This document shows positions 1 to 19,059 of a DNA stretch of 64,000 nt, piece after piece. The notes beneath the pieces were generated by a model. It worked only from the letters and a program-made list of their open reading frames with translations, was not told the DNA's origin and ran no database searches. Where the stretch lies: assembly GCA_000002435.2 (NCBI GenBank), contig CM018790.1. One strand, written 5' to 3'. This stretch comes from Giardia intestinalis (taxonomy: Eukaryota). The first letter of the stretch is position 1. Each line of letters begins with the position of its first letter. A program made the position numbers and the translations under genes.

Positions 1-3000
1 AATTGCTTGAGGCCTCATTGAAAGGTTGTTGTGCTGAGGCGTCTTGTCCATCGTCAGCAGCCCCACTTTTGAGCTTAGCAGTATCGACACCGTCACCGTT
101 AGATTCATCTGAGCTGCTGTCCTGCGGAAGCTTCAGATAGACTGTGTGGCCATCTGGTGGCTGAAGGGTGACAAGGTCGACTTTATTTCTATGAACGTTT
201 AGAGGAGAAAAGGGATTGGAGAAAAGGATGCTGCTCTGTGTGCGCTTTGCAAATACTCGGAGCATGGCGACAAGCTGCTTCGGATCCGTTATATTGAGCT
301 TTGATAGCAAAAGAATGTCTGCTCCTTCTAGTAGCTTCGCCAAGCCAAAGTCTTGGTAGTGTATAAGGACTGTCAGCAGTTGGCTGAGAAGAGATCTTTC
401 GATTGAGATATTATTTATTTGGTACAGCTTCTTGAACAGGACAGTCACAGTATCACACACGTGCTGGAACGTCGTGCGTTGTAACGGCGCAACAAAGAGG
501 CAGCGTGCGGAGGCCTGTGTTATCGTTGTATCCAGCTTTGTTTTCCCGAGTCTGTCATCTCCCGATGTGATTGCAATTCCCCCTGTTGCAGTGCCTTTTA
601 TGTCTGCAAGAAGAAAGTCTATCTCCTCTATGGCTCCTTCCAGTACTGTCACCCAATAATAGGTTCGAATGCACGTGGAGGTGTCGCCGGAATTAAAGTC
701 CAGCTCTCCCACTTTCAGCCCATTTAGTATCCTCCACAGCACAAAGTCAGGGAGTTTCTCTGCCTGTCTTAGTGCTGCCGTTTTGGAAACATAAGCATCC
801 CGAAGAGCCTTCATGGCAAGGGTAATGTTCCGCTTGGAGTAGTTGCGATATAGTATGTCAAAATGCTTTAAGTGCATAGCTCGTGGGGAAAGCATGAAGT
901 TCGTGGTTGGATTAAAGTCGGGGCCGATTTCATACGACATGTTTAGATATGCTACTACACTGTTAAGGTATCTCCACAAATCTTCGCTAATGTCGTTAAA
1001 TGAATCTATTAGCGACGTTGTCAAGCACAGACTATAGCTAAGTATACCATCTATCAGCACATTAACGGCATTAGCTTTATACACATCAGGAGGTAGTGTC
1101 ACATGTGTTGCCTCTCCAGACAGAGTGCAAGTCTTTTTCAATGCATCAACGTTCACGTCAGTGTCACATCCTGAGACTAGGATAAGATATTTTTGAACTA
1201 GCGCACACAAGCTAGTTACCATGACAATAAAGTTGTCTTTGGGCTCCTTCAAGTAAGGCTTCAACTTCTGAGACACTAAATCGTTGAATGAGTTCAGGTC
1301 TGGGCTTGCTACATTGCACGTAGAACAAAATATGCCACCTAACACGAATAGCAATTGGTGTAGAAGAACCATCATCCCCACGTGGATGAAATATCTGGAA
1401 TCGCCTTCATAGGTGCAAAGATACTTACACCGTGACGCATCTTTAGACGCGCAGACGTACGCGGAAGGAGGAGATGAGGAATAGAGCTCCTTGAAGAGAC
1501 TGTCAAAAGAGTCCAGAAGCTCTATGATACAGTTTCTGAAGTTGGTGCAGAATTCTGTTAGAGATCCAGCAGGAATGTCATCACATTTTAGGAATTCTGA
1601 TGTTGTTACTTTATTATGTAATCTTTCAGATGAGGACATTATCTTTCGAAGGGGGGCAGACGCTGGAAAGGTTTGTAGTAGGTCTGTTACAATAGAGCAG
1701 AACATTTTGAATTCAGACCAATTGACAGCAAGATTTACCTGTTCTGCTGCCCGCGCCTCCTCGTCTCTCCTGGCCTGTTCTGCTGCCCGCGCCTCCTCGT
1801 CTCTCCTGGCCTGTTCTGCTGCCCGTGCCTCCTCGTCTCTCCTGGCCTGTTCTGCTGCCCGTGCCTCCTCGTCTCTCCTGGCCTGTTCTGCTGCCCGTGC
1901 CTCCTCGTCTCTCCTGGCCTGTTCTGCTGCCCGTGCCTCCTCGTCTCTCCTGGCCTGTTCTGCTGCCCGCGCCTCCTCGTCTCTCCTGGCCTGTTCTGCT
2001 GCCCGTGCCTCCTCGTCTCTCCTGGCCTGTTCTGCTGCCCGTGCCTCCTCGTCTCTCCTGGCCTGTTCTGCTGCCCGTGCCTCCTCGTCTCTCCTGGCCT
2101 GTTCTGCTGCCCGTGCCTCCTCGTCTCTCCTGGCCTGTTCTGCTGCCCGCGCCTCCTCGTCTCTCCTGGCCTGTTCTGCTGCCCGCGCCTCCTCGTCTCT
2201 CCTGGCCTGTTCTGCTGCCCGTGCCTTCTTATCAGTATCTGCTTTAGCAGCAACACGCAGTGACCTCAAAGATTTAGCAGACAGCGCCCTGTCTCGATTG
2301 AATAATATTGGCTCATACATTTTTGCCTTTTGTGAAACCGTTATGCGCTTTGTTCTGATGAGTTTCTTAGTCATATCCCTTGCTCCAACCACGTATGCCA
2401 AGTCGTTACAGAAGTGGAAGAGCTCCGAGAATACTATTATGGTAGCTTCGGGATTATGAAATATGTCGTCATCGACCAGCAAAAGATCGTGAAACGGACA
2501 CTTAAAGGATGCAGTGAACACTAAAAAGTCGAGCAAACCATAGTCGTGCTTTTTCGAAAATGTCACTCTAAAAAAGCTATCGATGTTCCCCTTGGTCGCC
2601 AGGAAATAATCCTTTAGAGTAGGGTAAGGCTCCAAATTGATTGGGACGTTACCTTCATTGTTCATTAGTTTATACATACCGAATATGCAGTTGCCGAGGT
2701 CCCTGAGCTCATTGCCATCGAAGTCAAAGCCAGTATAATGCTGTGGTCCTGCTCTAGATAGGTTATTGAGTTTGGTATAAAGATAGTTCATCCAGCTGAT
2801 TAGTATGAGCGTTGCATGGTTGCGAATGGAAGAAAAATGCAATCTATGAGGATTTTGAGAATAAGATGCTGCGGACTTAGCTCTTCCTGCTGCTCTAGAA
2901 CACAGGTAGGAGCTACATAGATCCCCAGGTGCAAGGCTTACCGAAGTGAAGTCATCAAAAGTGTGTGTTTTTGCAAAAGCACTAAAACCAGCGTCCTCAA

Positions 3001-3442
3001 TGCAAGCAGAGCAAAATGGAACTGGAGTAAGAGTCTCCTGCTCGAGTCCTCTGACCATTGCGGTAGCCGTCAGGGTTGCTATAGTAATAAGTGCATCATA
3101 CAACTCTTGAGATCGATTATTGTGCAACAAAAGCCCGGCTATATCCGGGGAAATCCCTATGTCCCTCACAACTCCCGACGCTATGAAGAGAACGGACATC
3201 TGGTCTATCCCACTTGAAAGCGCGCTCTTGAGAGACCGAACAGATTTAAGGGAGAGTAATTTTAGCCGTGTAGCGCAAGCGAGGACCAGATAGCCGAGAC
3301 TCGTCCCTGCGGATAGCCGATGAACAAAGTCGGCACCGTCATCGCTAAATGGTTCGACAGGCAGCCTTTCAGCGGCAAGTACTCGATTGGCGTATCGCGC
3401 CAGAAAGCCTAGTGAGGGCCTCTGGAACCGTGGACGGTCCAT
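1..3442 (-). CDS. Hypothetical protein, 3' end outside the window; contains a roughly 13.6-copy 12-aa tandem repeat (EQARRDEEARAA) followed by a non-repetitive C-terminal part
   Basis: ATG is the reverse complement of cat at 3440..3442. My manual minus-strand translation in that frame runs through the repeat array to position 1 without a stop. It is absent from the ORF track presumably because its stop lies outside the window. The only polymorphism among repeat copies is synonymous in this frame. Confidence 0.55.
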   Translation of the reverse strand, partial: MDRPRFQRPSLGFLARYANRVLAAERLPVEPFSDDGADFVHRLSAGTSLGYLVLACATRLKLLSLKSVRSLKSALSSGIDQMSVLFIASGVVRDIGISPDIAGLLLHNNRSQELYDALITIATLTATAMVRGLEQETLTPVPFCSACIEDAGFSAFAKTHTFDDFTSVSLAPGDLCSSYLCSRAAGRAKSAASYSQNPHRLHFSSIRNHATLILISWMNYLYTKLNNLSRAGPQHYTGFDFDGNELRDLGNCIFGMYKLMNNEGNVPINLEPYPTLKDYFLATKGNIDSFFRVTFSKKHDYGLLDFLVFTASFKCPFHDLLLVDDDIFHNPEATIIVFSELFHFCNDLAYVVGARDMTKKLIRTKRITVSQKAKMYEPILFNRDRALSAKSLRSLRVAAKADTDKKARAAEQARRDEEARAAEQARRDEEARAAEQARRDEEARAAEQARRDEEARAAEQARRDEEARAAEQARRDEEARAAEQARRDEEARAAEQARRDEEARAAEQARRDEEARAAEQARRDEEARAAEQARRDEEARAAEQARRDEEARAAEQARRDEEARAAEQVNLAVNWSEFKMFCSIVTDLLQTFPASAPLRKIMSSSERLHNKVTTSEFLKCDDIPAGSLTEFCTNFRNCIIELLDSFDSLFKELYSSSPPSAYVCASKDASRCKYLCTYEGDSRYFIHVGMMVLLHQLLFVLGGIFCSTCNVASPDLNSFNDLVSQKLKPYLKEPKDNFIVMVTSLCALVQKYLILVSGCDTDVNVDALKKTCTLSGEATHVTLPPDVYKANAVNVLIDGILSYSLCLTTSLIDSFNDISEDLWRYLNSVVAYLNMSYEIGPDFNPTTNFMLSPRAMHLKHFDILYRNYSKRNITLAMKALRDAYVSKTAALRQAEKLPDFVLWRILNGLKVGELDFNSGDTSTCIRTYYWVTVLEGAIEEIDFLLADIKGTATGGIAITSGDDRLGKTKLDTTITQASARCLFVAPLQRTTFQHVCDTVTVLFKKLYQINNISIERSLLSQLLTVLIHYQDFGLAKLLEGADILLLSKLNITDPKQLVAMLRVFAKRTQSSILFSNPFSPLNVHRNKVDLVTLQPPDGHTVYLKLPQDSSSDESNGDGVDTAKLKSGAADDGQDASAQQPFNEASSN
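1738..2228. repeat. 36-bp tandem repeat, about 13.6 near-identical copies (unit cctgttctgctgcccgYgcctcctcgtctctcctgg)
   Basis: Period 36 is visible directly. The single variable site (C/T) is a GCG/GCA Ala third-position change in minus frame 1 but non-synonymous in the other frames. Confidence 0.95.
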
Positions 3443-3451
3443 AGTTTTTTA

Positions 3452-3458
3452 ATTTACT
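3452..3458 (-). terminator. Candidate AGTAAAT polyadenylation signal downstream of the ankyrin-like gene
   Basis: Minus-strand AGTAAAT lies 63 nt past the stop at 3521 and matches the Giardia AGTRAAY consensus. It sits within the A-rich stretch before the next ATG. Confidence 0.3.
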
Positions 3459-3520
3459 TCACCATACGTTTTTAGAGTCAAACTTCAACGAAATGCTTTT
3501 TGGAAAATGTACTAGATTGC

Positions 3521-4438
3521 TTAGTCCTCTACGCTACATATACTTCCCTGAGCGCTCCCCCTGTTGCTTAAGACGTCGTTCCGTTGGTCCAGAAGGGAGT
3601 GGTAATATGTCCCGGGCCACTGGGCGTCTATGATCTCAAGGACAGTCAACCCATATGCATTTTCTATGTGAGTAGATGCATTGAGCTCCCTTACTAGATA
3701 TGTGAAGCATTGGACGCTCCCCTTCTCATCATGTAGACAGTAATGCAAAGGAGTCTGCTTACCCCGCTCCTGTGAGGACTGCATGCTGATGTTCATACCT
3801 GCAGAGAAAAGAAGCCTAAGCATGTCGACCCTGTCAAAGGAACAGACGACGTGTATAGAGGACATTCCATATGTCCCCTGGTCCGATAGGCAATTGAAGA
3901 GAGTTGTGTAGGTCTTGGGAGCCGAGTCTAAAAAGATACTGCGCTGTTCTGGAGTTAATCTAGGGGATTGTTGGGGAGATAGATGCTTTGGTGACTTTGA
4001 AGAGTGGACGGATCCCGACCCCGAGAGAGCCATCCCGGGATCATCTGAAAAGATTGAAATGAGATACTCAAGGCACACTGTACCGTTAAAGATGATGTCT
4101 CCAAAACATGCCAAAACTGCTGTAGGGATCCCAGCAGCAAAAAAATTCCTAAACTTAGGGTTCGTGGCTACAGTGAGAATGGCGAACATGATTCGTTGAT
4201 CCAATATCTTTGTGAAAGTAAACGTAGCGGACGTTTCACCTGTCGAAACCGTAACAAGGTGTGCCTCTCCGTTTTGCGTGTGTTCAAGGGACGTTATGCT
4301 CGAGAGGCGAAACACTGGTCCAGAGTGAATCTTGAGCTGATCAAGTGTCAAAACAACGTCTTTGGTTTCATTTTTCTTTTTCCGCGGGCAGAGAATAGGA
4401 AGCTTTGCCTTGAAAATAAGACTCTGATCGGATTTCAT
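3521..4438 (-). CDS. Hypothetical protein with C-terminal ankyrin-like repeats (protein 21.1-like)
   Basis: ATG start (cat 4436..4438). The C-terminal part shows TPLHYCLHDEKGSVQCFTYLV and SIHVVCSFDRVDMLRLLFSAGMN ankyrin-type patterns. Confidence 0.5.
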   Translation of the reverse strand: MKSDQSLIFKAKLPILCPRKKKNETKDVVLTLDQLKIHSGPVFRLSSITSLEHTQNGEAHLVTVSTGETSATFTFTKILDQRIMFAILTVATNPKFRNFFAAGIPTAVLACFGDIIFNGTVCLEYLISIFSDDPGMALSGSGSVHSSKSPKHLSPQQSPRLTPEQRSIFLDSAPKTYTTLFNCLSDQGTYGMSSIHVVCSFDRVDMLRLLFSAGMNISMQSSQERGKQTPLHYCLHDEKGSVQCFTYLVRELNASTHIENAYGLTVLEIIDAQWPGTYYHSLLDQRNDVLSNRGSAQGSICSVED

Positions 4439-7520: not shown

Positions 7521-10500
7521 TCATGATACTATGCGTTTTATCCTTTCCTTATCAAAGTCTATGTACTCTTCTAGCTCCTCTAGCGTCTTTAAGAACGTTT
7601 CTCGAGCCAGTAGGTAAAGACCCTCATAGTCCCTATATTTTCCCATGAGCTGATTCGCAAGTACGATCTTTTCTGCTTGCAGGTTCATCAACCTGATAAT
7701 GAGCTTCCCCAATCTTTCGCGACAGAGCTCTATCTCAGTGTGTGTTAGGGAATTTGGTTCCTTACAATATACTGGCAGTTCATTGCGCAGAATGTCTATT
7801 TTTTCCGCTATGTGTGGTGGAAGCATCTCATTATTAGCCTGAACATAGTCAGAATTAGACATGAACCCAGTTATATTGAACCGACCGTGGTATCCAGACT
7901 CACGGCATGTACCATAGGGACCCATGAAGTATACATCTGAATCCGATTGAGGAATGTATGCTTTGTCTACATGTCGAAGCCTGTTTTGCTTTGATTCCTG
8001 GCTTGATCCGTGATAGGTGCTATCACCCGTAAGATAGCTCCCTTGGCGTAAAGCGTGAGTCGCCTTGCTATCGGGATACTTATATAAGTTGCGATAATGC
8101 TTCATCGAAACGTCTGTCTTGACCACCAACTTGGGGTATATTAAGTCAGACAAGAATACCTTTATCAGTCTGGGACATAGTGCGAAATAGCTTGAAGACG
8201 TAGTACCAGTGATGGTCTCTAGCTCTTCAGGTTCTTCCGGGTTCGTGGCTTCAGAAAAATCATCCACAGGGGTACTGAGTGGGGCCATCGCAAGGGATTG
8301 ATGGTATGGCATATTAAGCTTTAAGCTTGCTCTGATTGTTGCTAGTCGCTCGGTTGGAGTAAAGAGCTCTTTAATATCATAGCCTTCATCAGAGTTCAGC
8401 TCCGGGCTTCCTCCCGATTTACGTTTGTCGATAAGAGAATCTTCCAGACTGGTGGAGGGAGCCGTTTTTGTCACACTGTGTGCGCCTGAATAGAGGGAGC
8501 TAGACACGTCATCCATCATGTGTGCGTCTGTCAATTCTTTAGAGTGTACCTTTTGTTCTGGTCGATCTGTGGCTATCCCTACTGTTGGTGACGAAATGCT
8601 TTCTCTGTTTTGGTCATCAAATGGCATGATCTTTTCTGGGAATATCCTAAGCGAATCATCTGCTTCTACGCTACTCTCCAAACATCTTACGGATCGATTG
8701 CTTTGATCTCTAACTATTACATCCGTATTCATGGTTTGGTTTTCTAGAAGGCCGTCATTTGACTTCGTGGCAATGAACGTGTCGTGGTTGTCATTGAGTT
8801 GCTTCTCAGTAAGTGCCACAGTAGTCGATGAGACAAGGTCATCGAAGTTAACCACCTGGATTGTAGTCTCCTGCTCTTCGGAAAATTCATTTCGCTTATT
8901 CAGGAACATTCTAACAATGTCCATAGTTCCGCTGTTCACGCTGGGGGTCACGATACCTGTTAAGTTTTGAAAGACTTTATTAAGCTCATCTGGAAGCCTT
9001 TCAGTATCATAGATTGCTTTTTCAACTATCCTGATGGCCTCTTGGATTGGATTGCTGTATTCCTCATAGACGTATATGACTCTTTGGCGCGAATTTGTGT
9101 GAGGAAATGGGTGTGCAGTGTAGTAGTAAACATTTAGACATCCGGCTAATTTGATTGATGAATCACCAGAGTACACCTGCTGTTGTATCCGTCGCCGAAA
9201 GATTTGTCGCGAGGTGTAGGAATGAATCGTGTTGCAAGACGATCCAGTATCAACTGAGGTTTCGTCGGATGCTAAAACAAACGGATAGTAATTATAAATG
9301 ATATTGGAGTAATACGTTATTGGATAGCCATCTTTCTCATCGGTAGCTCTATGTGCAGATACATGGTCGGCGTGCGTCCGTAGTAGCACTTCCCCAGGGA
9401 TGTGTAAGTTCGGTTCTGTGTGTACAGGCACTAAGTGAGGATTAGAGTATGGCCCCCCAAGGAACGATAAGCTGTCTTCGGGGTGCCCAGCCTTACTGTC
9501 TGCTCCCATGTCATAAGAAAGTAGTTGAGCCAAGATCTTCTGTTTTATCTGCTCCTCCTTTTCTGTGAGAAGTGCAGCCGATTGAACTATCTTGTACGGC
9601 TCCACCTTCTGAACAATTATCTTGGGCGTGCCGTCAGGTTTCCGCAAATCAGGTGGGTCGTAGAACCGCTTCAACCTCTCAGTGAACTCTCGAATTGTCT
9701 CTGAGTGAGGACAGCAATAGATATATTCTGTAGTCGATTCCTTACCGTTGTTTTCCGTCGTGATAGACACCCAATAGTAGTGCACATTCTCATGTAGTTT
9801 GTAAGCGTCCTCGTGGCTCTTCTTTTCGGCCAGGAGTGCGTCACTATAGCACTGGATCATAGAAAGCGGGTCGAAATAGCTAGGTAGCTTATCTTGTGTG
9901 GGTGTAGCCAGAGAGCTAGAATACAGCTCCGTCAGTGTCATAAGAAGCTTGTAGATATGCTTGGTATATAAATAGAACTTGGCAGTCTGGAACTCGGTGG
10001 CAGCGCTCTGCAGTGCAAGTAGTAATTTGAAAAACTGACCACCGTCCAGAGATGAGTATATGTTTTCGCTTTTCCCCATTAGATGCTGTGCCTTTGCAAT
10101 GTACGCGAACCATACATCCAAATCGTTCTGCACAGTAATGTCGGGAATAATCTTGCGCAGCTCCGGGATAACTATCTTACTGAGAGAGTAGACTGAAGGG
10201 AGACTGGAGTAATCAATAACCTTGTCGTCAAATTGTGACCTGACAATTAAGTACTCGCTAATAAGCCCCGCAATCAATATAGACACCATTCCGGCTTCAA
10301 CGTGCCGTCTGTTTTCCCTTAAAAAGTTAAAGAGCGACTGCAGACTAAATAGGCGCAGGTCCACTTGACCAACGTAGCAATCTGCCTGTGACAGCTTGAG
10401 CTCTGCATACAGATCCAAGTCGGTAACGGTGCTCCCCATCGATTGGATCTTGGAGCGCTCCTTTATCATGTACTCGCTTTCTATTACTATGAGCAATCTA

Positions 10501-13500
10501 TCATAGAAGAGACATACAGTTGAATAGAAGTGCTTGCAGATAAAGCTAACCTTGCCTGAGACGGGAGTCATCTCATGCAACCCAGAACCGTCGTCACAGC
10601 CTCCGTTTATCCAGGCCTCGTCGTTAGAGCATATCTCGTTGACACCAGCACGTACGTAATCAAAGAATGAAATTATTGCCTTCTTCTTCTTGGCTGTAAG
10701 ATCCATAGTGACCAAGGAGTAATTGATCATCGAAAATAGAATGGACGTGTTGGCATGATAGTCAAATTCTATTTTGAGCAATATCGCGATTATCGTTGCT
10801 GCTAGACTGTACAGACTGAACTGTTCTAGGTCTATTTTATCAAGCAATGCCTTAATAACCATAGAGATTCCATGATCAAAATCAGATTTTTTATTTTCTA
10901 AACCATTGAATAAGATTGAGGCAATAGACGGAAAATAGTTGACAAGGGCGTTCAGCACAATCTCATTATACACAGCAAACTTGTGATCCTTAACTAGAAA
11001 GTATGCAAATGTATGAATTAATTCGGCGTGAACGTCACAGAAGCTTGAAGATGACGTTGACCCAGAATCCAGTACTCGAGTCTCGTCTGAATTGACAATA
11101 AGGTGTTGTGTGTATGAGAGTAATTGATACATAGCTGATTCATAAATAAGTGTCGAAAGCAGTGATGCAACCACGTCACAGGACGAATCAGGACCCTTTA
11201 TTAGCTTCAGATAAAGCAGGTCTGCTGATGTGGAATGGGCTCGTTGCGGGTTGCTTACATTATCCACGGTAGTTTGAGAAGCTAAAGAAATAGGCTTTTC
11301 AACGTGTGCTTCGGTTGAGTCAAGGACCGACAACTTATTACTTTTAATTTGGGCTGCTAGGTAGGTGATAACCTCCTCCACACTGGAGGGCTTCGTCCGA
11401 TGACTCAAGTGATGGCGAGGCGGGGATAGAGCTGGGGGGTGTGGCTCTACAGCAGGTATCTGCTTAATGCAGCTGTCAGTAAAAGTGAAGGTGCCTGTTA
11501 ATCTATGGACGCTCGAGCCTTTGTCGCGATGTCGAGCAGAAACGCTGTGAGATATTTCCTTCTCATCTCCGGTCATGTCCTCTTCTGCCGTGGGGTCGTC
11601 GATAGAGCCCACAACCGAATGTGTCAACTTATGCCAGGTGTGCTGAGACTCCTGAATATCTACAGAGTCCTCAAGCGCTCGATAGATGCTGGCATCGTCA
11701 GTATCATCAGAAGTAGTAAGAGTCGCCTGGCTGATCTGTGTGGAGATCTTAAATCCTTGGCGTGCAGATTGTTTAGAGGTAGGTTTCTTCATAGCGCGAT
11801 GCCCGCCTCTGGAGGTCGTAGACTCGCGCTGCTCCTTTATGATCCTCCTGGGGATGTATGGGATGTTGGGGCATGTCTGTTGTCCAAACGATGCTCCCGA
11901 AGGTATTGTTCCATGAGCATTATGATAGGCAGTTGCAGTGTGAAATAACTGGCTTGAAGTAACCCAAGTAGTAGAGGCATTTCTATCCGTTTTGGAGTAT
12001 GGGTCATAGGTCGACGTATGCTGAAGAGATAGCACCGGATTTTGGGTTGTATTGCTAGATAGTTTACCATCATCGTTATATTTGAGCACCCTCCCCATAA
12101 ACATATCCGTAATCGTTTCAGAAAACAAGAGTAGGTCATCACTCACCGAAGAACCAGATTTAAAAGAGTCAAAAAATGGACCGAGCCTCTGATGAGCGTG
12201 AACTTGCTGATTAGATGAATCACTATAGAATGGAGAAACAAACAGAAAAGGCGTGGGCTTAACAGAGCCATTATTTGGAGGAAGGAAGATGTTGTCGACA
12301 AGCTTGGAGTCACCAGACAGCAGAAAATTCAAATAACGCATGCTCTGAACACGGTAGGATGAAGATGTCAGAATAGTGGCCCTCTTTCTAAGAGAATCCT
12401 CGTCAAAGAGAAACGGTACATGGCGATAGATCTTAAGCATGCTCTGTGCTTGCTCCACAGTTAAGTTGCGCAAAAACTCAATGCAGTAATTTGTTAATCT
12501 TTGAAGAAAGGTAATAAGAAAGAGGAACATTTCTGCCATAAGAAGTTCCAACGAAAAGTCAGTGCATTGCGCCTGAACGTCCGATGTGTGTGAATACGGA
12601 GATCCCCGGACTGTCTTAGGTGTAGACGAATCTTCAAGATCTGATTGCTTCACAGTTGTCCTTGGAGTGGACAAGGATGCAACCGCCACTCCTGCATTGT
12701 CTGTAACATTACACTTCCTACCCTGGTCGCCAGGCACCGTGTGCACATCAGTCTCAGGTGTGCTTGCCCTATTACTGGTGTCAGTCTGCTTGTTGACTGA
12801 ATTGAAGAACTTGTCATAATTATCAAGAATTAATAGGAGCAGTGGGACACACGACACGTAGAGAAATGACGGGGTTTGTCTAGCTATGTCCCCCGAGCAA
12901 ACCTCCCAAAGAAATATAAAGATATTTGTGCAGATTGATCGGAAAGCCGTGTGGTCTTCTACGGAATGGGACAGCTCAGAATTATAGTTAAACAGCAGAC
13001 AATGCAATGCCTTGAGATACAAATGCGGAAGAATGCACCCCACTGGAATCAAGTTGAATGGTGGTAACGTGTAGTCGACGGAACCATCAGAGGTGTCGGA
13101 AGCGCCCCCTTGGAAAGTAAACGACTCCTTAGCGTGAATGTCTGTGAATGAGTATGAATAGAGAAGAGCCCGTTCCCTCATCAATTGGTGCAAAAAGTCA
13201 AAGAAGATCTGCCACCTGGTAAACCAATGACCACCCTTGAAGGTGTCATTTTTGTCAATCAGAGACTCGAGAAACGAGAACAACTTAGTCTTCTTGGGGC
13301 TAGTAACAACAAGAAGAATAAAAAGCTTTGCAGTCGAGGTAATAATAACAAAGGACTTATTGTACGAGGTTAGTGAATAACAGGAATCGATAAGATTATA
13401 AAGAATTGCGTTGATCAAATGGCCTATTGAGTTGATGAAAGCAATGAGGTCGGCTTCAAACTCAGCTCGCTCTACACTGTCATGAGAGACGGTCGCACTC

Positions 13501-16500
13501 GATGAGTGCGTGCCCTCCAAACTGTCGGAGTTTCCGGAGACATCCAGCACTGCGTTGTCAAAAAGAAAGCAGGACATACTAGCATTGTACAAATGCTTAT
13601 ACCTGGTCAAGATAATCATAAAGCTTTTGGCGATAAGGAGAAAGTTGTGGGGTATGATTGCAAAAAGACGGTCAACTAAAGAGGATTTCTGAATGATGTA
13701 CTTTATTACGCTGTTGTGTAAGTAAGAAACATAATTCTGAAGCGCTTGGAAGGTTGTTATAGAGCATATGTGGTGGGCAACCATGGCGTACACGGCCAGA
13801 TTGGCAAGTACGAAAGAGTCTTGCTTAAATGGCTCGGACAGGGAGGTATCTGATGAACTGTCTTGATGGTAGAACGAGATGTGATTGCCGATACCGCCGA
13901 GAGCCCGGTATATGTCTGATAGTGCCGCGAACTCGCCATCTAACGGATTCTGTATCGCGCTCGTAGAGCCAAACAACGGCGCTAGCATGGCCCCGAGAAG
14001 CGGAGTGTAGATGAAGTTCTGTAGCATCATAAGCCAGGAGTTGCGCCTCCCAAAAGTTTTGTGTGCTTTAAACGCGGCTGCCACTTCTTCGTTAATACAA
14101 TGGCGATATAAATTGTTGACAATCGCCATGCTCTCGTTTGAAATGGTGGTAAAGGGGGCAAGAACGTGCTCCAGGCAATTGAAAATAAGGTCCCTAGAAA
14201 CAACGTGTTCAAATAGCTCTTGGTGCATGAGCAGGGAGGCCAGTGCAACTGCAATATTATAGGTGGGCCCATATTGCTCCAATAGAATGCTCTCTCCATA
14301 AAATGGAATGGACTTACGCTTAGAAGCTGCTAGCTGGGCCTGAAGCTGGGCTTGAGTCGCTGCAAAGCTTGCACCTGCCGGTGCCAGCGGTCCACGTAGT
14401 TCGTCGCTCACAATGCTACTGGTAGCGTTTCCTAAGTATGCATCCCGGGATATCTTAAAACTGACCGCGTAGAGATTGACCTTGTCGCAAAATCTACGCA
14501 GGGTCTTCACGCTTTTATCCAGATCAATGCAGCTGTGGAGAACTATGTTCTTAGCGCATGTATATGCATAGTAAATTGCGTTCAAAAAGTGAGAATGTGT
14601 GTAAAGGGAAGATTCATAGCGTAGTGTGCAAAGCATATATCCTACCTGTTTAGTCTGCTTGCTGATGCCATCTGTTAGACCCTGTAAAGGCCTTTCCTTG
14701 TCAGCTTGAGACGACAAATAGCCTGCAGAAATTTGGCTCTGAAACGGGATAGAAATAGATCTATCATAGTTTTCGACAAACTCGCTATTTGTCATCATAG
14801 GAGGAGACAAGGCATCGACCCCGAGAGTGTTCTGCAGCACCGGTACTCCCAGCTCGTCGACACCCTTGACAAGAGGAAGGTATGCATAACCAAGTAGTGA
14901 AAGCTGAGTGCGTGCCTCAACGATGTGCTGAATGCTCGCTGGGTCTATTGAGTCTTGCATACCCGATCCCAGTATTTCAGTATATTGCGAGGATCTCACG
15001 GGAATGGAGTCAGCAGGATGCGACACGACGGAACTAGTGGTGGACATCTTACCTGAAGCAAGAGCATAGGTGGGGAATGTATGCTCCTTGTTATCAGTGG
15101 TACTACAGAATGCAGGTGTTGCATATAACTGTGTCAACTTGGTGAGATTCATGATCTCAGTGGCTGTTTTCTCTTGAGGTACAAAGACAGTATCGTCAAC
15201 ACCTACAATTGTCGAGAGATCACATTTATCTGCATGAGCCCTTTCTTTTGCAGAAAGCCCAGGAACCCCATAGAGCGTAAACAGGAAATGTGTCTTCGGA
15301 GTGATGTACAGCGGTAGCTCAAACTTAACCTCATCATGGAGTCGTACCACACGCGTATTGACAGCTGCAGAGGTCAAATACGAACTTCGAAAGGCTATTC
15401 GACCCTTAGTCATGTCATCCGGTGTCATGGAGCCGTGAAGCCTTGGATAAATGGCCCACATTATATCTTTATCGTCTAATGCATCATCAGAGCGCATCTC
15501 CACCTTCAGGAAGAAAGCATTGTAACGTGCATTCGGTAGAGTTACGATAAAAGACTGCGGATATAGGTAGACCCGATTCCTGAAGGGAGCGGCAGGAGTA
15601 CCGACCTCTCGGCGGAAGAAGCAGTCTAGCTGCTTAACGTAGATGTGGTTGGGATGAAGCTTATTTCCTCTAATGCGATCGAAGAAATAATGGGACTGAA
15701 GCGAAGAAAACGCCTTTTTATGCTCTAGTGTGGTCTCGGCGTCACGTAGCGTCAGATATATGCGTTGACTAGATATCCCTTGTGCGCTCATGAGGGCAAA
15801 TAATAAAAGATGACTCAGTGTGTCTGTAGTCAAATATCCGTGCTTCAAAAGCAACAATAAATCACTATGTTCTCCTCTCTCGAGAAGATGCAGACTATAG
15901 GACCAAACCATTAGCTCTAGTTCATGTGCAAAATCCGGAAGGTGATTTGGCTGCAGAGTGCGGTAACTTGGGGCGTCCTTTATAGCTCTGAACACCCCTG
16001 AACTTGAATCATAGACACCGAACGTATTGACAGAAGTATTGACATACAATTGAACGTAGTTTAAAGCCCGTTTCTTTGATACGCGATCATTGTATGTGTT
16101 TAAAAGAACAGAGGCCAGAGGCTCTGTTTGTGAAATATTTTTAGGAAGGCGAACAAAGGTGTTAAGCTTATGCGAAACGGGTCGCAAGGGGTGCACAAAG
16201 GAAAGCCCCTTCTCATTTAGAACACTAGAAAAACGAGGATCCTTTTTGAGCTTGCTTACAGAGTAAATGCCGCGCCTTTTCTGCTCATTGAAGTATCCAC
16301 ACATGCGGCCAATAAGCTCCCTGCGTTCAGGATCAGTGTCGGACTCCTGTAGATGCACAAATGAATCGGCGTCAGAGTTGGAATTGCAATCTGCCTCCAA
16401 TAGATCTTGCAGCCTGACCTGTTGCTCCATCCCATCTCTACGCTTGATGCTTGAAGTTCTAGAATAAATAATTTTGGTGAGCAAAAGAAAGTTTTCCAAT

Positions 16501-18503
16501 TGCTGAATAGAGACCTTGCTATCACAAACTGTAGTACTGATTTTTCCACGCGAAGAAGCTGTCTGTGCTAGTGTTGCAACTGGAACAGATTCGTCCGAGC
16601 GCACTACGCTCCGCGGTACTCCCATGATGCTAATATTATGAGCAAAAGCGTGGGGCTGAGAGTCTGGGTTAGAAGTACTTGGGCAAGCATCGTAAAAGTT
16701 AGAGTCGGGCAGGACACTGGCCACTTGGTCAAAGGTTGCTCGTGCACTACTTGTGTCTGCAGGGTCTAGAGACAGTGCTCCCTGAACATGGCTAGATGAG
16801 TCGTGCGGGTGGGCTACCCGCTTCAAAGATGCACTACCTTGCATAGAGAACGCCGATAAAGGAAAGATGGGAGAAATGCTCACGGCAAACGTCTCCCTGA
16901 GCCCACCAGTCTGTCTGATAGCTGCCCTAACCTTAGGGAGATACTTGTTACACTCTGCCAAGATCTGCTCACCATACTTTCCATAGGCTGCGAAGATACT
17001 AGTTGGAACTTTGGACTCAGTACTTAGGCTGCTAGTGCAGGTATAATCAATACCTGGATACTTAAAGAAAGGCATGTCACCTTTGGACTTCTTAGCTTCA
17101 AGTTTCCTCTTCGTGTGGCCCTGAACTGAGGGTGCACCAGATTGCTTGCTTTGGCTATCACTGGTCAGAGTGTGGGAAAGAGAACTGACTATCGCTTCAT
17201 TGATGCTACTGTCATGTCTTGTCTGGGAAAACTTGTTGCTTAGTACACCCGAGATTACTCTGATGTCATGGGATGCAACACCGTCTGCCAGTCTCTGCAA
17301 GTAAAGGCTGTAGCGGTCGACTTCCGACCTGATCTTTTCATCTGCAAGGGCAAGGTCTTCTAGCTCTTTGATCCTGGAGTAGAATGCGTGCGATTCATCA
17401 GACGAGACACCTATGGTCTTTTCTAGAAACACAACCAAGAAAATACGTCTGAAGCACGTCTGCGATGAAATGGGAATGGTAAACTCCACGAGCTTCGACC
17501 TTTCGATCGTATCCAAGATAGTCATGAGTCTGCTATAAAGGGGCTTAGAATCAAGTGATGTTTTATCACACGCGAAGCTCCGAAGTGTCGAAAAACAGTT
17601 CATATCTATATACTGGCTCTCAGACACCCTATAGAGCCCATGTTGACCGTTGTCAGTGGAGCTATAGTAATACAATGCAATTGAGCCGTAAAACGGCTCC
17701 ATGACCTCTCTGTTCACCATCCCTACCACCAAATTTTCAATGCTGAGACTCATTCTGAGCACAGGCGGCTTAATAAAAGGCGGTATTGATATCTTCTCAA
17801 AGAGAAAGTCGCTGGACGTGATCTTCCCGATGTTCATTAACTCCAAGAGCAACCGGGGCTCAGTAAAGAGTCTCTCCAAAAGGATGTTGATAGGTGGTAC
17901 GTTATTGACGGTTTTTTGGGTGGTAAAGGTCTTGCTCTTTTGGCTTCTGACACCACCTGTGTAACGGTCTAGAAGGACCGGCACATTACGCATAAGTTTG
18001 CTGGCATTTTCCAGCACACTTAGAGCCGACGACGTTCGAAATATGGGGTCCACATCGGCGTAGATGGTACACGGATGGGTCAGAAAAAACCGGATAATGT
18101 CCAGTGTGGCATGCGGATACTCTACCGCCTTAAGGAACGGAGCATCTATCTGAAGCCTTATGGAGCTTATAGGGCTGGAGGAAGTGGTACGATGGGTGGA
18201 GATAGATTCTTGTCCGTATCGTACACTGCCGCTCCTGTTAGAGTCTGGCTCCAAACGGCTATCCTCAGAAACCTGCATATCACAGAACTGTGGGCCTGCT
18301 CTACCACTAGGAGCGCTTTCACGGAGAGTCCTAAAATCATCAAGTACGTGCGGTGCCACGCGCCAGTACGTAAATGGCACTCTGGGGGAGCGCTGGATGC
18401 CAAATCCGGCCGCCTCCTTTAGGACATTGAAGTACTCCACGTCTGAGGCCTTCAAACCGAAGACAAATTGGTCCCAATTATACTGTGCTGAACTGTTTGA
18501 CAT
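7521..18503 (-). CDS. Giant (3660 aa) DOCK-like protein with DHR-1 (C2-like) and DHR-2 (GEF-like) motifs
   Basis: ATG (cat 18501..18503). Candidate DHR-1 signatures: KFELPLYITPKTHFLFTLYGV and LGYAYLPLVKG. Candidate DHR-2 signatures: TEYIYCCPHSE ... KIIVQKVEPYKI, resembling DOCK KEYIYKEPKLT ... YIQVTxVxPFF. Paralogous to the gene at 35739..45110. Confidence 0.55.
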   Translation of the reverse strand: MSNSSAQYNWDQFVFGLKASDVEYFNVLKEAAGFGIQRSPRVPFTYWRVAPHVLDDFRTLRESAPSGRAGPQFCDMQVSEDSRLEPDSNRSGSVRYGQESISTHRTTSSSPISSIRLQIDAPFLKAVEYPHATLDIIRFFLTHPCTIYADVDPIFRTSSALSVLENASKLMRNVPVLLDRYTGGVRSQKSKTFTTQKTVNNVPPINILLERLFTEPRLLLELMNIGKITSSDFLFEKISIPPFIKPPVLRMSLSIENLVVGMVNREVMEPFYGSIALYYYSSTDNGQHGLYRVSESQYIDMNCFSTLRSFACDKTSLDSKPLYSRLMTILDTIERSKLVEFTIPISSQTCFRRIFLVVFLEKTIGVSSDESHAFYSRIKELEDLALADEKIRSEVDRYSLYLQRLADGVASHDIRVISGVLSNKFSQTRHDSSINEAIVSSLSHTLTSDSQSKQSGAPSVQGHTKRKLEAKKSKGDMPFFKYPGIDYTCTSSLSTESKVPTSIFAAYGKYGEQILAECNKYLPKVRAAIRQTGGLRETFAVSISPIFPLSAFSMQGSASLKRVAHPHDSSSHVQGALSLDPADTSSARATFDQVASVLPDSNFYDACPSTSNPDSQPHAFAHNISIMGVPRSVVRSDESVPVATLAQTASSRGKISTTVCDSKVSIQQLENFLLLTKIIYSRTSSIKRRDGMEQQVRLQDLLEADCNSNSDADSFVHLQESDTDPERRELIGRMCGYFNEQKRRGIYSVSKLKKDPRFSSVLNEKGLSFVHPLRPVSHKLNTFVRLPKNISQTEPLASVLLNTYNDRVSKKRALNYVQLYVNTSVNTFGVYDSSSGVFRAIKDAPSYRTLQPNHLPDFAHELELMVWSYSLHLLERGEHSDLLLLLKHGYLTTDTLSHLLLFALMSAQGISSQRIYLTLRDAETTLEHKKAFSSLQSHYFFDRIRGNKLHPNHIYVKQLDCFFRREVGTPAAPFRNRVYLYPQSFIVTLPNARYNAFFLKVEMRSDDALDDKDIMWAIYPRLHGSMTPDDMTKGRIAFRSSYLTSAAVNTRVVRLHDEVKFELPLYITPKTHFLFTLYGVPGLSAKERAHADKCDLSTIVGVDDTVFVPQEKTATEIMNLTKLTQLYATPAFCSTTDNKEHTFPTYALASGKMSTTSSVVSHPADSIPVRSSQYTEILGSGMQDSIDPASIQHIVEARTQLSLLGYAYLPLVKGVDELGVPVLQNTLGVDALSPPMMTNSEFVENYDRSISIPFQSQISAGYLSSQADKERPLQGLTDGISKQTKQVGYMLCTLRYESSLYTHSHFLNAIYYAYTCAKNIVLHSCIDLDKSVKTLRRFCDKVNLYAVSFKISRDAYLGNATSSIVSDELRGPLAPAGASFAATQAQLQAQLAASKRKSIPFYGESILLEQYGPTYNIAVALASLLMHQELFEHVVSRDLIFNCLEHVLAPFTTISNESMAIVNNLYRHCINEEVAAAFKAHKTFGRRNSWLMMLQNFIYTPLLGAMLAPLFGSTSAIQNPLDGEFAALSDIYRALGGIGNHISFYHQDSSSDTSLSEPFKQDSFVLANLAVYAMVAHHICSITTFQALQNYVSYLHNSVIKYIIQKSSLVDRLFAIIPHNFLLIAKSFMIILTRYKHLYNASMSCFLFDNAVLDVSGNSDSLEGTHSSSATVSHDSVERAEFEADLIAFINSIGHLINAILYNLIDSCYSLTSYNKSFVIITSTAKLFILLVVTSPKKTKLFSFLESLIDKNDTFKGGHWFTRWQIFFDFLHQLMRERALLYSYSFTDIHAKESFTFQGGASDTSDGSVDYTLPPFNLIPVGCILPHLYLKALHCLLFNYNSELSHSVEDHTAFRSICTNIFIFLWEVCSGDIARQTPSFLYVSCVPLLLLILDNYDKFFNSVNKQTDTSNRASTPETDVHTVPGDQGRKCNVTDNAGVAVASLSTPRTTVKQSDLEDSSTPKTVRGSPYSHTSDVQAQCTDFSLELLMAEMFLFLITFLQRLTNYCIEFLRNLTVEQAQSMLKIYRHVPFLFDEDSLRKRATILTSSSYRVQSMRYLNFLLSGDSKLVDNIFLPPNNGSVKPTPFLFVSPFYSDSSNQQVHAHQRLGPFFDSFKSGSSVSDDLLLFSETITDMFMGRVLKYNDDGKLSSNTTQNPVLSLQHTSTYDPYSKTDRNASTTWVTSSQLFHTATAYHNAHGTIPSGASFGQQTCPNIPYIPRRIIKEQRESTTSRGGHRAMKKPTSKQSARQGFKISTQISQATLTTSDDTDDASIYRALEDSVDIQESQHTWHKLTHSVVGSIDDPTAEEDMTGDEKEISHSVSARHRDKGSSVHRLTGTFTFTDSCIKQIPAVEPHPPALSPPRHHLSHRTKPSSVEEVITYLAAQIKSNKLSVLDSTEAHVEKPISLASQTTVDNVSNPQRAHSTSADLLYLKLIKGPDSSCDVVASLLSTLIYESAMYQLLSYTQHLIVNSDETRVLDSGSTSSSSFCDVHAELIHTFAYFLVKDHKFAVYNEIVLNALVNYFPSIASILFNGLENKKSDFDHGISMVIKALLDKIDLEQFSLYSLAATIIAILLKIEFDYHANTSILFSMINYSLVTMDLTAKKKKAIISFFDYVRAGVNEICSNDEAWINGGCDDGSGLHEMTPVSGKVSFICKHFYSTVCLFYDRLLIVIESEYMIKERSKIQSMGSTVTDLDLYAELKLSQADCYVGQVDLRLFSLQSLFNFLRENRRHVEAGMVSILIAGLISEYLIVRSQFDDKVIDYSSLPSVYSLSKIVIPELRKIIPDITVQNDLDVWFAYIAKAQHLMGKSENIYSSLDGGQFFKLLLALQSAATEFQTAKFYLYTKHIYKLLMTLTELYSSSLATPTQDKLPSYFDPLSMIQCYSDALLAEKKSHEDAYKLHENVHYYWVSITTENNGKESTTEYIYCCPHSETIREFTERLKRFYDPPDLRKPDGTPKIIVQKVEPYKIVQSAALLTEKEEQIKQKILAQLLSYDMGADSKAGHPEDSLSFLGGPYSNPHLVPVHTEPNLHIPGEVLLRTHADHVSAHRATDEKDGYPITYYSNIIYNYYPFVLASDETSVDTGSSCNTIHSYTSRQIFRRRIQQQVYSGDSSIKLAGCLNVYYYTAHPFPHTNSRQRVIYVYEEYSNPIQEAIRIVEKAIYDTERLPDELNKVFQNLTGIVTPSVNSGTMDIVRMFLNKRNEFSEEQETTIQVVNFDDLVSSTTVALTEKQLNDNHDTFIATKSNDGLLENQTMNTDVIVRDQSNRSVRCLESSVEADDSLRIFPEKIMPFDDQNRESISSPTVGIATDRPEQKVHSKELTDAHMMDDVSSSLYSGAHSVTKTAPSTSLEDSLIDKRKSGGSPELNSDEGYDIKELFTPTERLATIRASLKLNMPYHQSLAMAPLSTPVDDFSEATNPEEPEELETITGTTSSSYFALCPRLIKVFLSDLIYPKLVVKTDVSMKHYRNLYKYPDSKATHALRQGSYLTGDSTYHGSSQESKQNRLRHVDKAYIPQSDSDVYFMGPYGTCRESGYHGRFNITGFMSNSDYVQANNEMLPPHIAEKIDILRNELPVYCKEPNSLTHTEIELCRERLGKLIIRLMNLQAEKIVLANQLMGKYRDYEGLYLLARETFLKTLEELEEYIDFDKERIKRIVS

Positions 18504-18645
18504 TGGTCAAAAGCCACAGGAGGATCGCAGCCCAACTAAAGCTCCAAGAGGACAAGTGCAATTAAATCTGTCCACAGTTTCCATACACTTTCCATATCTT
18601 TATTGCCAAATATCCAATCACATTAAAATTTTATCGGATTCTAAA

Positions 18646-19059
18646 ATGGCGGAAGCTGAACTGACGCAGGACGTGGCCGAGGCCTTCATGCATTTTTACT
18701 ATGATTCTCTATTAACAGACCTGTTGAGAATACAATCTGTGGTTGACCAAAGCTGCAAGTTTGTCTACCGCACGTGCAAGCCCCACGGGAAGGAATCCCA
18801 ATATGATTCTAAAAAAGATCCCCAGGCCATTATGAAGGCACTCGAGGTCATCTATAAAGATATAGATAAAGTAGACATATTGATGTGGACCCCTGTTCTT
18901 TTGGAGGACAGTATTACCCTTGTGGTGTCTGCTAAGTACCAGCAGAAAAATAAGCAAGAGCCTTTGCTTACTAGTGAAGTGTTAGTCATAGGAAGGAGCA
19001 AGCAAAAACAGAAGCGGGGATTCTCCCTATTAGCAATCACTACGCACATCATAGAATGA
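18646..19059 (+). CDS. NTF2-like small protein (137 aa; NTF2 / p15 fold)
   Basis: True ATG sits in the ctaaaATGgcg context. AEAFMHFYYDSL resembles NTF2 GSSFIQHYYQLF, and size and C-terminal beta-rich part fit the NTF2 fold. The track's upstream extension (18160) would overlap the divergent giant gene. Confidence 0.45.
   Translation: MAEAELTQDVAEAFMHFYYDSLLTDLLRIQSVVDQSCKFVYRTCKPHGKESQYDSKKDPQAIMKALEVIYKDIDKVDILMWTPVLLEDSITLVVSAKYQQKNKQEPLLTSEVLVIGRSKQKQKRGFSLLAITTHIIE

What the first reader, a model, noticed from the sequence alone, without database searches (positions are those of the whole stretch)
1738..2228. Near-perfect 36-bp (12-aa) tandem array whose only variable site is synonymous in the coding frame
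About 13.6 copies encode (EQARRDEEARAA)n. Copies differ only at one position (cccgCgcc versus cccgTgcc), which is GCG/GCA (Ala) in the frame continuous with the ATG at 3442 but changes R/H or other residues in alternative frames. This supports the minus frame-1 reading, which the ORF track does not list. The extreme homogeneity implies recent expansion or ongoing concerted evolution, so the array is probably length-polymorphic between isolates and is a potential typing marker.
Basis: seen in the sequence. Interest (0 to 1): 0.5.

Follow-up and report, generated by a model that had tools for sequence, protein, structure and literature searches.

The report
Length-variable helical repeat in Giardia protein
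The 36-bp array is real and codes for a 12-residue Glu/Arg/Ala repeat, probably a stiff single helix, inside an uncharacterised Giardia-only protein; its copy number runs from 1 to 13 between isolates, which makes it an ordinary but usable coding minisatellite.

Summary
Window 1738..2226 holds 13.6 head-to-tail copies of a 36-bp unit. They differ at one site only, GCA or GCG (Ala). The minus-strand frame from the ATG at 3442 is open for all 1147 codons to the window edge. That translation is an exact prefix of Giardia intestinalis WB hypothetical protein GL50803_4883 (1471 aa).

The predicted length polymorphism is real:
- Assemblage A: WB has 13 units (12 in the 2007 assembly), DH has 7, other A isolates have 1.
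- Assemblage E: P15 has 5.
- Assemblage B: 4, 5 or 1.
- G. muris has an unrelated Pro/Glu-rich linker at that position.

Unit variants are isolate-specific, which indicates concerted evolution. ORF length, orthologue conservation and dN/dS of 0.07-0.2 settle the frame.

The repeat has no hydrophobic residues and a near-optimal i+3/i+4 salt-bridge pattern, and AlphaFold2 models it as one unbroken helix. It is more likely an ER/K-type single alpha-helix spacer than a coiled coil. The host protein has no detectable homologues outside Giardia. Interest is low to moderate.

The parts
1738..2226 (-). 36-bp (12-codon) in-frame coding minisatellite with 13.6 copies. It encodes KKARAA-(EQARRDEEARAA)x13-EQ, which is aa 405-568 of the protein. 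It is 67% GC, and the sense strand has no T and is 78% purine.
   Evidence: TRF; 13 exact units at 1745..2212; codon tables; composition.
1754..2222 (-). The only polymorphic position inside the array. It recurs every 36 nt (1754+36k) and is the third base of an Ala codon, GCG in 5 units and GCA in 9. The order A G G A A A A G A A A A G G suggests duplication of a 5-unit (180-bp) block.
   Evidence: The block duplication is an inference from the pattern.
1..3442 (-). Codons 1-1147 of GL50803_4883 / GL50803_004883 (XP_001705547.2, hypothetical protein, 1471 aa). The start ATG is at 3440-3442 and an in-frame TAA lies 9 nt upstream. The gene continues beyond the window edge.
   Evidence: Translation without a stop; exact prefix of P0006; upstream TAA read from the sequence.
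2285..3442 (-). N-terminal conserved domain (aa 1-386). It is the most conserved part of the protein, up to 70% identity to G. muris over aa 251-350. It is all-alpha in the model.
   Evidence: Alignments; dN/dS 0.07-0.2; no homologue outside Giardia among 1.84 billion representatives.
2..1737 (-). Start of the C-terminal alpha-helical domain (aa 569-1147 of about 900 residues). The window cuts it short.
   Evidence: AlphaFold2 secondary structure with pLDDT 60-85 over aa 580-1040; dN/dS 0.08-0.17; Foldseek gives only generic TPR/HEAT-like hits with E>0.01.
3443..3520 (-). 78-bp intergenic spacer to the upstream ankyrin-repeat gene (3521..4438, minus strand). The A/T-rich stretch AAATTAAAAAACT sits directly before the ATG and is probably the Giardia-type initiator/promoter.
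   Evidence: Sequence; ankyrin Pfam hits. The promoter reading rests on general knowledge of Giardia AT-rich initiators and was not tested.
1491..2459 (+). Spurious antisense ORF (322 aa, TTG start) that is open only because the repeat has no stop in any frame. The variable site is silent here too.
   Evidence: ORF list; translation to (CSAARASSSLLA)n; six-frame test.

Best explanation
The array is an in-frame 36-bp coding minisatellite inside the Giardia-specific gene GL50803_4883. It lies in a variable linker between a conserved N-terminal domain (aa 1-386) and a large C-terminal alpha-helical domain.

DNA level. Replication slippage and/or unequal sister-chromatid exchange add and remove whole 12-codon units, sometimes in multi-unit blocks. 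The frame is therefore always kept, and the units within a lineage are homogenised (concerted evolution). The result is 1 to 13 units in different isolates.

Protein level. The Ala/Glu/Arg unit EQARRDEEARAA most likely forms a continuous, salt-bridge-stabilised single alpha-helix of the ER/K type. This would be a semi-rigid spacer of about 25 nm in WB and about 3-5 nm in the shortest alleles. Its sequence pattern is under constraint, but its length is only weakly constrained.

Status of each step. Shown: the array, the frame, the gene identity, the polymorphism, the isolate-specific unit variants and the helix-favouring charge pattern. Inferred: the slippage/recombination mechanism, the monomeric-helix state and the spacer role.
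For: Array and frame.

Gene identity: the window protein is an exact prefix of WB GL50803_004883. The organism is confirmed by Dicer at 27670..29934, which matches PDB 2FFL at 1727 bits, and by Pfam Giardia Dicer_N at 1e-100.

Polymorphism: WB has 13 units (12 in the older WB protein record), DH 7, the P0002/P0016/P0011 assemblage-A alleles 1, P15 5, GS 4, and two other assemblage-B alleles 5 and 1. The 1-unit allele sits on 14 contigs, including uninterrupted 81.6-kb contigs. One of those samples belongs to the clinical-isolate study PMC10132058.

Concerted evolution: the within-array variants differ by isolate. They are GCA/GCG at Ala9 in WB, GCA/GCG at Ala12 in DH, AGG/AAG in P15 and AGA/CGA in GS.

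Coding constraint: dN/dS is 0.07-0.2 in the flanking domains. Between assemblages A and B the unit differs by 4 synonymous and 2 non-synonymous changes.

Helix: there are no LIVMFWYC residues and 58% of residues are charged. Each unit has 8 opposite-charge and 0 like-charge i+3/i+4 pairs, and only 0.28% of composition-preserving shuffles do as well. AlphaFold2 gives one unbroken helix over aa 381-591 with pLDDT 95-98 when that segment is modelled alone, and helices H401-488 plus H492-591 in the 1147-aa model. A survey of SAH domains found that diplomonad SAH domains prefer Arg over Lys (PMC5812594), which matches this Arg-rich unit.

Linker position: the G. muris orthologue has an unrelated 189-aa Pro/Glu-rich segment at exactly this place.
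Against: No experiment bears on the fold, and AlphaFold2 cannot tell a single helix from a coiled-coil strand. The charged fraction (0.58) is below that of classic SAH domains (up to about 80% E/K/R), and Ala makes up 33%. Arg-rich designed repeats have been reported to aggregate (PMC5812594). The 1-to-13 range and the disordered G. muris linker argue that helix length is not important, so the spacer function may be trivial. Several copy numbers come from 454 or short-read assemblies that could under-count units. The 12 versus 13 difference in WB may be an assembly error.
Confidence: 0.68

Rival explanations
1. The repeat is a functionally neutral, slippage-prone low-complexity insertion in a tolerant linker. 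It may be helical or disordered, but neither its structure nor its length matters to the protein.
For: Copy number ranges from 1 to 13 with no visible cost. G. muris has an unrelated, probably disordered, linker at this site. The sequence flanking the array inside the linker is poorly conserved between assemblages.
Against: The 12-residue unit is kept at 10-11 of 12 residues between assemblages A, E and B, while the whole protein is only 72-85% identical. The differences between units are mostly synonymous or conservative. The charge arrangement falls in the top 0.3% of shuffles for helix-stabilising pairs.
Confidence: 0.2
2. The array forms a two-stranded coiled-coil rod that dimerises the protein.
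For: AlphaFold2 models a long uninterrupted helix. Charged helical repeats are commonly scored as coiled coils by prediction programs.
Against: There is not a single hydrophobic residue in the assemblage A and E units, and only one Leu per 12 residues in B. A 12-residue period does not fit heptad or hendecad packing; 36 residues make 10 turns of an unstrained helix, so no seam forms. Like-charge i+3/i+4 pairs number zero.
Confidence: 0.08
3. The repeat is an immunodominant tandem-repeat B-cell epitope of the kind common in parasite antigens, and copy number changes under immune selection.
For: Tandem-repeat proteins in many parasites are strong antigens (general knowledge). Copy number and unit sequence differ between isolates.
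Against: The N-terminus (MDRPRFQRPSLGFLARY...) shows no signal peptide or membrane segment by eye. The protein looks cytosolic and is all-alpha. No serological data were found.
Confidence: 0.04
4. The differences in copy number are assembly artefacts (collapse or expansion of a perfect repeat) and not biological variation.
For: Two protein records from the same WB isolate differ by one unit, 1459 versus 1471 aa. Short-read contigs of WB type end at the array: P0008 and P0015 start just downstream of it. Tandem repeats are a known source of assembly error (PMC6868369).
Against: The 1-unit allele is crossed without a break by 81.6-kb contigs in several samples and is also found by a different assembler in ENA. 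With two or more units, a k=31 graph would branch at the unit-unit junction; this is my reasoning about how Logan assembles. Two independent GS assemblies agree on 4 units. The arrays carry different internal variants, which collapse cannot create.
Confidence: 0.04

Closest known systems
ER/K single alpha-helix (SAH) domains, for example in myosin VI/VIIa/X, caldesmon, INCENP, the CAF-1 KER region and drebrin
   Same: A long run of Glu and Arg with dense opposite-charge i,i+3 and i,i+4 pairs. There is no hydrophobic seam, the segment is modelled as one continuous helix, and it sits between two folded domains as a spacer (features as described in PMC5812594 and PMC4183817).
   Different: Perfect 12-residue tandem periodicity instead of a degenerate pattern. 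It has 33% Ala and only 58% charged residues, uses Arg almost exclusively, and contains one Asp per unit. Its length varies about ten-fold within one species. No biophysical test has been done.
Designed Ala-based helical peptides and rigid linkers of the (EAAAK)n / (EAAAR)n type (from my own knowledge)
   Same: An Ala-rich background with Glu and Arg spaced so that they form intrahelical salt bridges. Such peptides behave as rigid helical spacers.
   Different: This one is natural, has a higher charge density, a 12-residue unit with Gln and Asp, and is embedded in a 1471-aa protein.
Coding minisatellites/VNTRs used for typing parasites, for example the Cryptosporidium gp60 serine repeat and C. 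parvum MLVA loci (PMC10665698)
   Same: An in-frame unit, copy number differing between isolates, homogenised units, and possible PCR sizing across conserved flanks.
   Different: It lies in an intracellular orphan protein and not in a surface glycoprotein. My literature searches surfaced no Giardia VNTR typing scheme. The organism is tetraploid, so more than one allele per isolate is possible.
Calponin-homology (CH) domain plus rod proteins, for example alpha-actinin, spectrin, plectin and fimbrin
   Different: The model is of low confidence (mean pLDDT 53) and the matching region could not be located. Pfam CH, a PDB profile search and hhalign against an alpha-actinin ABD profile are all negative. 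There are no spectrin repeats.

Membership tests
Coding minisatellite / VNTR | Head-to-tail copies of a 10-100 bp unit | tested here: met
   Period 36, 13.6 copies, 98% identity; 13 exact units.
Coding minisatellite / VNTR | Unit length is a multiple of 3 and the array lies inside a translated ORF | tested here: met
   36 nt equals 12 codons. The frame is open for 1147 codons in the window and for 1471 in the full protein. dN/dS is 0.07-0.2. Peptides of GL50803_4883 were detected by mass spectrometry, though at only 2 hits (PMC8552679 Table S3).
Coding minisatellite / VNTR | Copy number varies between isolates | tested here: met
   13, 12, 7 and 1 units in assemblage A; 5 in E; 4, 5 and 1 in B.
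Coding minisatellite / VNTR | Units within an array are more alike than units between lineages (concerted evolution) | tested here: met
   Unit variants are isolate- or assemblage-specific...ARAA in A, EQAKRD... in E...ARLA or ...ERLA in B. Each array also has its own private synonymous site.
ER/K single alpha-helix (SAH) domain | High E/K/R content with dense opposite-charge i,i+3 and i,i+4 pairs and few like-charge pairs | tested here: met
   Charged fraction 0.58. Each 12-residue unit has 8 opposite-charge and 0 like-charge pairs, matched by only 0.28% of shuffles. The charge fraction is lower than in classic examples.
ER/K single alpha-helix (SAH) domain | No hydrophobic seam at heptad a/d positions | tested here: met
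   0% LIVMFWYC in the WB array.
ER/K single alpha-helix (SAH) domain | Predicted as a continuous helix not packed against other elements | tested here: met
   Helix over aa 381-591 at pLDDT 95-98 in the segment modelled alone; H401-488 and H492-591 in the long model.
ER/K single alpha-helix (SAH) domain | Monomeric, stable helix in solution (CD, SAXS, AUC) | not testable with these tools
   This needs recombinant protein.
Coiled coil | Heptad (or related) repeat with hydrophobic a/d core positions | tested here: not met
   There are no hydrophobic residues and the 12-residue period fits no coiled-coil periodicity.
Calponin-homology / actin-binding-domain proteins | Sequence match to the CH domain family (Pfam PF00307) | tested here: not met
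   No Pfam hit even at E<=10. The PDB profile search gave no CH chain. hhalign against the alpha-actinin ABD gave probability 0.2%.
Calponin-homology / actin-binding-domain proteins | CH fold in a confident structure | tested here: inconclusive
   [not shown]
Any curated protein family for the host protein | Significant match in Pfam, in PDB sequences, or among 1.84 billion representative proteins outside Giardia | tested here: not met

The most novel reading that the evidence does not exclude
GL50803_4883 may be a highly divergent cytoskeletal linker. In this reading a CH/actin-binding-domain-like module and a large helical domain are joined by an ER/K single helix, and the length of that helix is reset by minisatellite dynamics from about 3 nm to about 25 nm between isolates. 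The locus would then be a natural length series of a molecular spacer, in an organism described as lacking all canonical actin-binding proteins (PMC8552679).
Probability: 0.12. Interest if true: 0.6.

Novelty: new member of a known kind. Interest (0 to 1): 0.27.

Why it matters
Practical use. Giardia sub-assemblage typing relies on a few slowly evolving genes, and my searches turned up no VNTR scheme for it. A locus that reads 13, 7 and 1 units in three assemblage-A lineages, and 1 to 5 units in assemblage B, could add resolution. It could also flag mixed infections. It needs amplicon sizing or long reads, because short-read assemblies break or may under-count at this array.

Biological use. 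The locus offers a natural length series of a probable single alpha-helix between two conserved domains of an orphan Giardia protein. That is convenient material for asking whether spacer length matters.

Otherwise this is a routine example of a coding minisatellite evolving in concert.

Tried and rejected
Searches that found nothing
- Phage/virus origin: megablast of 1..3700 against the phage collection gave no match. My first guess of a large DNA virus was dropped once Giardia Dicer was recognised.
- Pfam on the protein and its orthologues, even at E<=10, gave nothing credible.
- A profile of the N-terminal domain against 1.84 billion representative proteins returned only Giardia.
- PDB sequence searches with the array and with the N-domain profile gave nothing.
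- Foldseek against PDB gave no hit at E<=0.001, only generic TPR/HEAT solenoids. The afdb50 library was not available.
- A JGI metagenome scan with a degenerate pattern for the downstream flank gave 0 hits.
- Literature searches for the gene identifiers found nothing in main texts. The gene is absent from the held supplements of the 2026 Giardia localisation atlas.

Tests that stayed inconclusive
- hhalign of a real alpha-actinin ABD alignment (sequences) against the Giardia alignment gave probability 0.2%. The only local match was QQRKTFTAWCN against LQRTTFQHVCD near WB residue 988, which is not significant. The CH-domain lead therefore remains untested at the sequence level.

Considered and rejected
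- A splice donor at CAG|GTAAAT directly after the array. The frame continues and the next residues (NLAVNWSEF) are conserved in frame in all assemblages.
- The antisense ORFs 1491..2459(+), 1825..2247(+) and 1735..2256(-). They exist only because the repeat has no stops.

Full report
**Observation**

Tandem Repeats Finder reports one strong array in the first 6 kb: 1738..2226, period 36, 13.6 copies, 98% matches and no indels. A degenerate unit pattern finds 13 exact full units at 1745..2212 on the minus strand, with none expected by chance. Codon tables show that the copies differ at a single base. This is the third position of an Ala codon, GCG in five units and GCA in nine, in the order A G G A A A A G A A A A G G along the gene. 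The peptide is KKARAA-(EQARRDEEARAA)x13-EQ. The minus-strand frame from the ATG at 3442 is open for 1147 codons down to window position 1. The ORF list left it out only because it does not report ORFs that run off the source.

**Source and gene**

The window is eukaryotic, not viral or bacterial.
- The ORF at 27670..29934(-) matches the whole Pfam Giardia Dicer N-terminal domain at 1e-100.
- The same ORF matches the Giardia Dicer crystal-structure sequence 2FFL at 1727 bits over its full length.

A search with the repeat deleted found only five protein clusters, all from Giardia. The window translation is an exact prefix of XP_001705547.2, hypothetical protein GL50803_004883 of G. intestinalis WB, 1471 aa. 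Orthologues are:
- DHA2_154378 (DH, assemblage AII)
- GLP15_2582 (P15, assemblage E)
- GL50581_3987 / GSB_150185 (GS, assemblage B)
- GMRT_14243 (G. muris)

All of them lie between the same ankyrin-repeat gene and an HscB-like DnaJ gene.

**Reading frame**

All six frames are free of stops across the array. The WB variable site is silent in the true frame and also in the antisense ORF 1491..2459(+), where it reads CGC/CGT, and that ORF's repeat peptide (CSAARASSSLLA)n is equally invariant. Three other facts settle the frame:
- the uninterrupted 1471-codon ORF with an in-frame TAA 9 nt upstream of the ATG;
- conservation of the protein as far as G. muris;
- Nei-Gojobori dN/dS of 0.07-0.2 in the flanking domains between WB and DH, P15 and GS.

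GL50803_4883 also appears, at only 2 hits in one condition, in the mass-spectrometry table of a Giardia actin pull-down study (PMC8552679 Table S3). That is weak evidence that the protein is made, and no real evidence that it binds actin.

**Polymorphism and concerted evolution**

Unit counts below use the register EQA[RK]RDEE[AE]R[AL]A.

| Isolate or allele | Assemblage | Units |
|---|---|---|
| WB, current record | A (AI) | 13 |
| WB, older record XP_001705547.1 | A (AI) | 12 |
| DH | A (AII) | 7 |
| P0002 / P0016 / P0011 | A | 1 |
| P15 | E | 5 |
| GS, two independent assemblies | B | 4 |
| ENA metagenome allele (L007) | B | 5 |
| ENA metagenome allele (L004) | B | 1 |
| G. muris | not applicable | none (unrelated 189-aa Pro/Glu-rich segment) |

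The 1-unit assemblage-A allele lies on 14 contigs, including unbroken 81.6-kb contigs from several sequencing runs. One of those runs belongs to the clinical-isolate project of PMC10132058. If two or more units were present, a k=31 assembly graph would branch at the unit-unit junction, so a clean pass-through argues that the allele is real. This last point is my own reasoning about the assembler. Conversely, WB-type short-read contigs stop at the array (P0008 and P0015).

The three assemblage-A lineages differ by only 12-18 residues elsewhere in the protein, so copy number changes much faster than point substitution.

Each array has its own private variant: GCA/GCG at Ala9 in WB, GCA/GCG at Ala12 in DH, AGG/AAG (Arg/Lys) in P15, AGA/CGA in GS, and Ala-to-Glu and Gln-to-Arg changes in one assemblage-B allele. 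Whole arrays also carry assemblage-specific units. This is the classical signature of concerted evolution. The WB pattern (G A A A A)(G A A A A) suggests that a 5-unit block was duplicated, which is an inference. The array is 67% GC against 45% for the rest of the gene, and its sense strand has no T.

**What the repeat probably does**

The unit has no hydrophobic residue and is 58% charged. Per 12 residues it has eight opposite-charge and zero like-charge pairs at i+3/i+4, an arrangement matched by only 0.28% of composition-preserving shuffles. AlphaFold2 models aa 381-591 as one unbroken helix with pLDDT 95-98 when that segment is modelled alone. In the 1147-aa model it gives two long helices at pLDDT 50-72.

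These are the defining sequence features of ER/K single alpha-helices, which act as semi-rigid spacers or constant-force springs between domains (PMC5812594, PMC4183817). That survey also notes that diplomonads prefer Arg in such domains. A coiled coil is unlikely because there is no hydrophobic seam and a 12-residue period fits no coiled-coil packing.

If fully helical, the WB array spans about 25 nm and the shortest alleles about 3 nm. The unit peptide is better conserved between assemblages (10-11 of 12 residues) than the protein as a whole (72-85%). Length, by contrast, varies freely and G. muris uses a different linker. I therefore read the pattern as constrained and the length as only weakly constrained.

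**The host protein**

It has no Pfam family. Its best-conserved domain has no relative outside Giardia among 1.84 billion representatives. It has no PDB sequence relative and no significant Foldseek hit.

- fimbrin, filamin, IQGAP, parvin, Vav, MICAL and others

I could not locate the matching region. A profile-profile comparison with a real alpha-actinin ABD alignment was not significant. This remains a lead only.

**Verdict**

The phenomenon is of a well-known kind. The specific locus and its polymorphism do not appear in the literature I could search. Interest is modest. It is a candidate typing locus and a natural length series of a probable single alpha-helix, with a small chance of marking a divergent cytoskeletal linker.

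Noticed in passing
[not shown]
   Followed up: partly
window 7521..18503 (-) and 35739..45110 (+): Two giant ORFs of 3660 and 3123 aa lie within the same 64-kb window. Both have DOCK-C2 and DHR-2 (DOCK-family Rho-GEF) Pfam matches.
   Followed up: no
window 27670..27677: The stop end of the Dicer ORF (27670..29934, minus strand) overlaps the listed start of the MORN-repeat ORF (22347..27677, minus strand) by 8 nt. The true start codon of the MORN gene was not checked.
   Followed up: no
window 18160..19059 (+) against 7521..18503 (-): A 299-aa ATG ORF overlaps the 5' end of the DOCK-like ORF on the opposite strand by about 340 nt. It was not examined.
   Followed up: no
P0006 against P0007 (WB protein records): Two records for the same WB gene differ by exactly one repeat unit: 1471 aa in XP_001705547.2 and 1459 aa in XP_001705547.1. 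This is either an assembly error in one genome version or a change during culture.
   Followed up: partly
P0005 (G. muris GMRT_14243), residues about 370-560: At the position of the array the G. muris orthologue has an unrelated Pro/Glu-rich segment of 189 aa. That is almost the same length as the WB linker (191 aa), although other G. duodenalis alleles have linkers of 46-119 aa.
   Followed up: no
window 1738..2226: The sense strand of the array contains no T at all and is 78% purine and 67% GC, against 45% GC for the rest of the gene. Such strand asymmetry might favour slippage or non-B DNA, but this was not tested.
   Followed up: no
PMC8552679, supplementary Table S3: GL50803_4883 is listed with F 0 / G 2 / DSP 0 hits in one replicate of a Giardia actin pull-down mass-spectrometry screen. 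This is weak evidence of expression and is not a credible interaction.
   Followed up: partly
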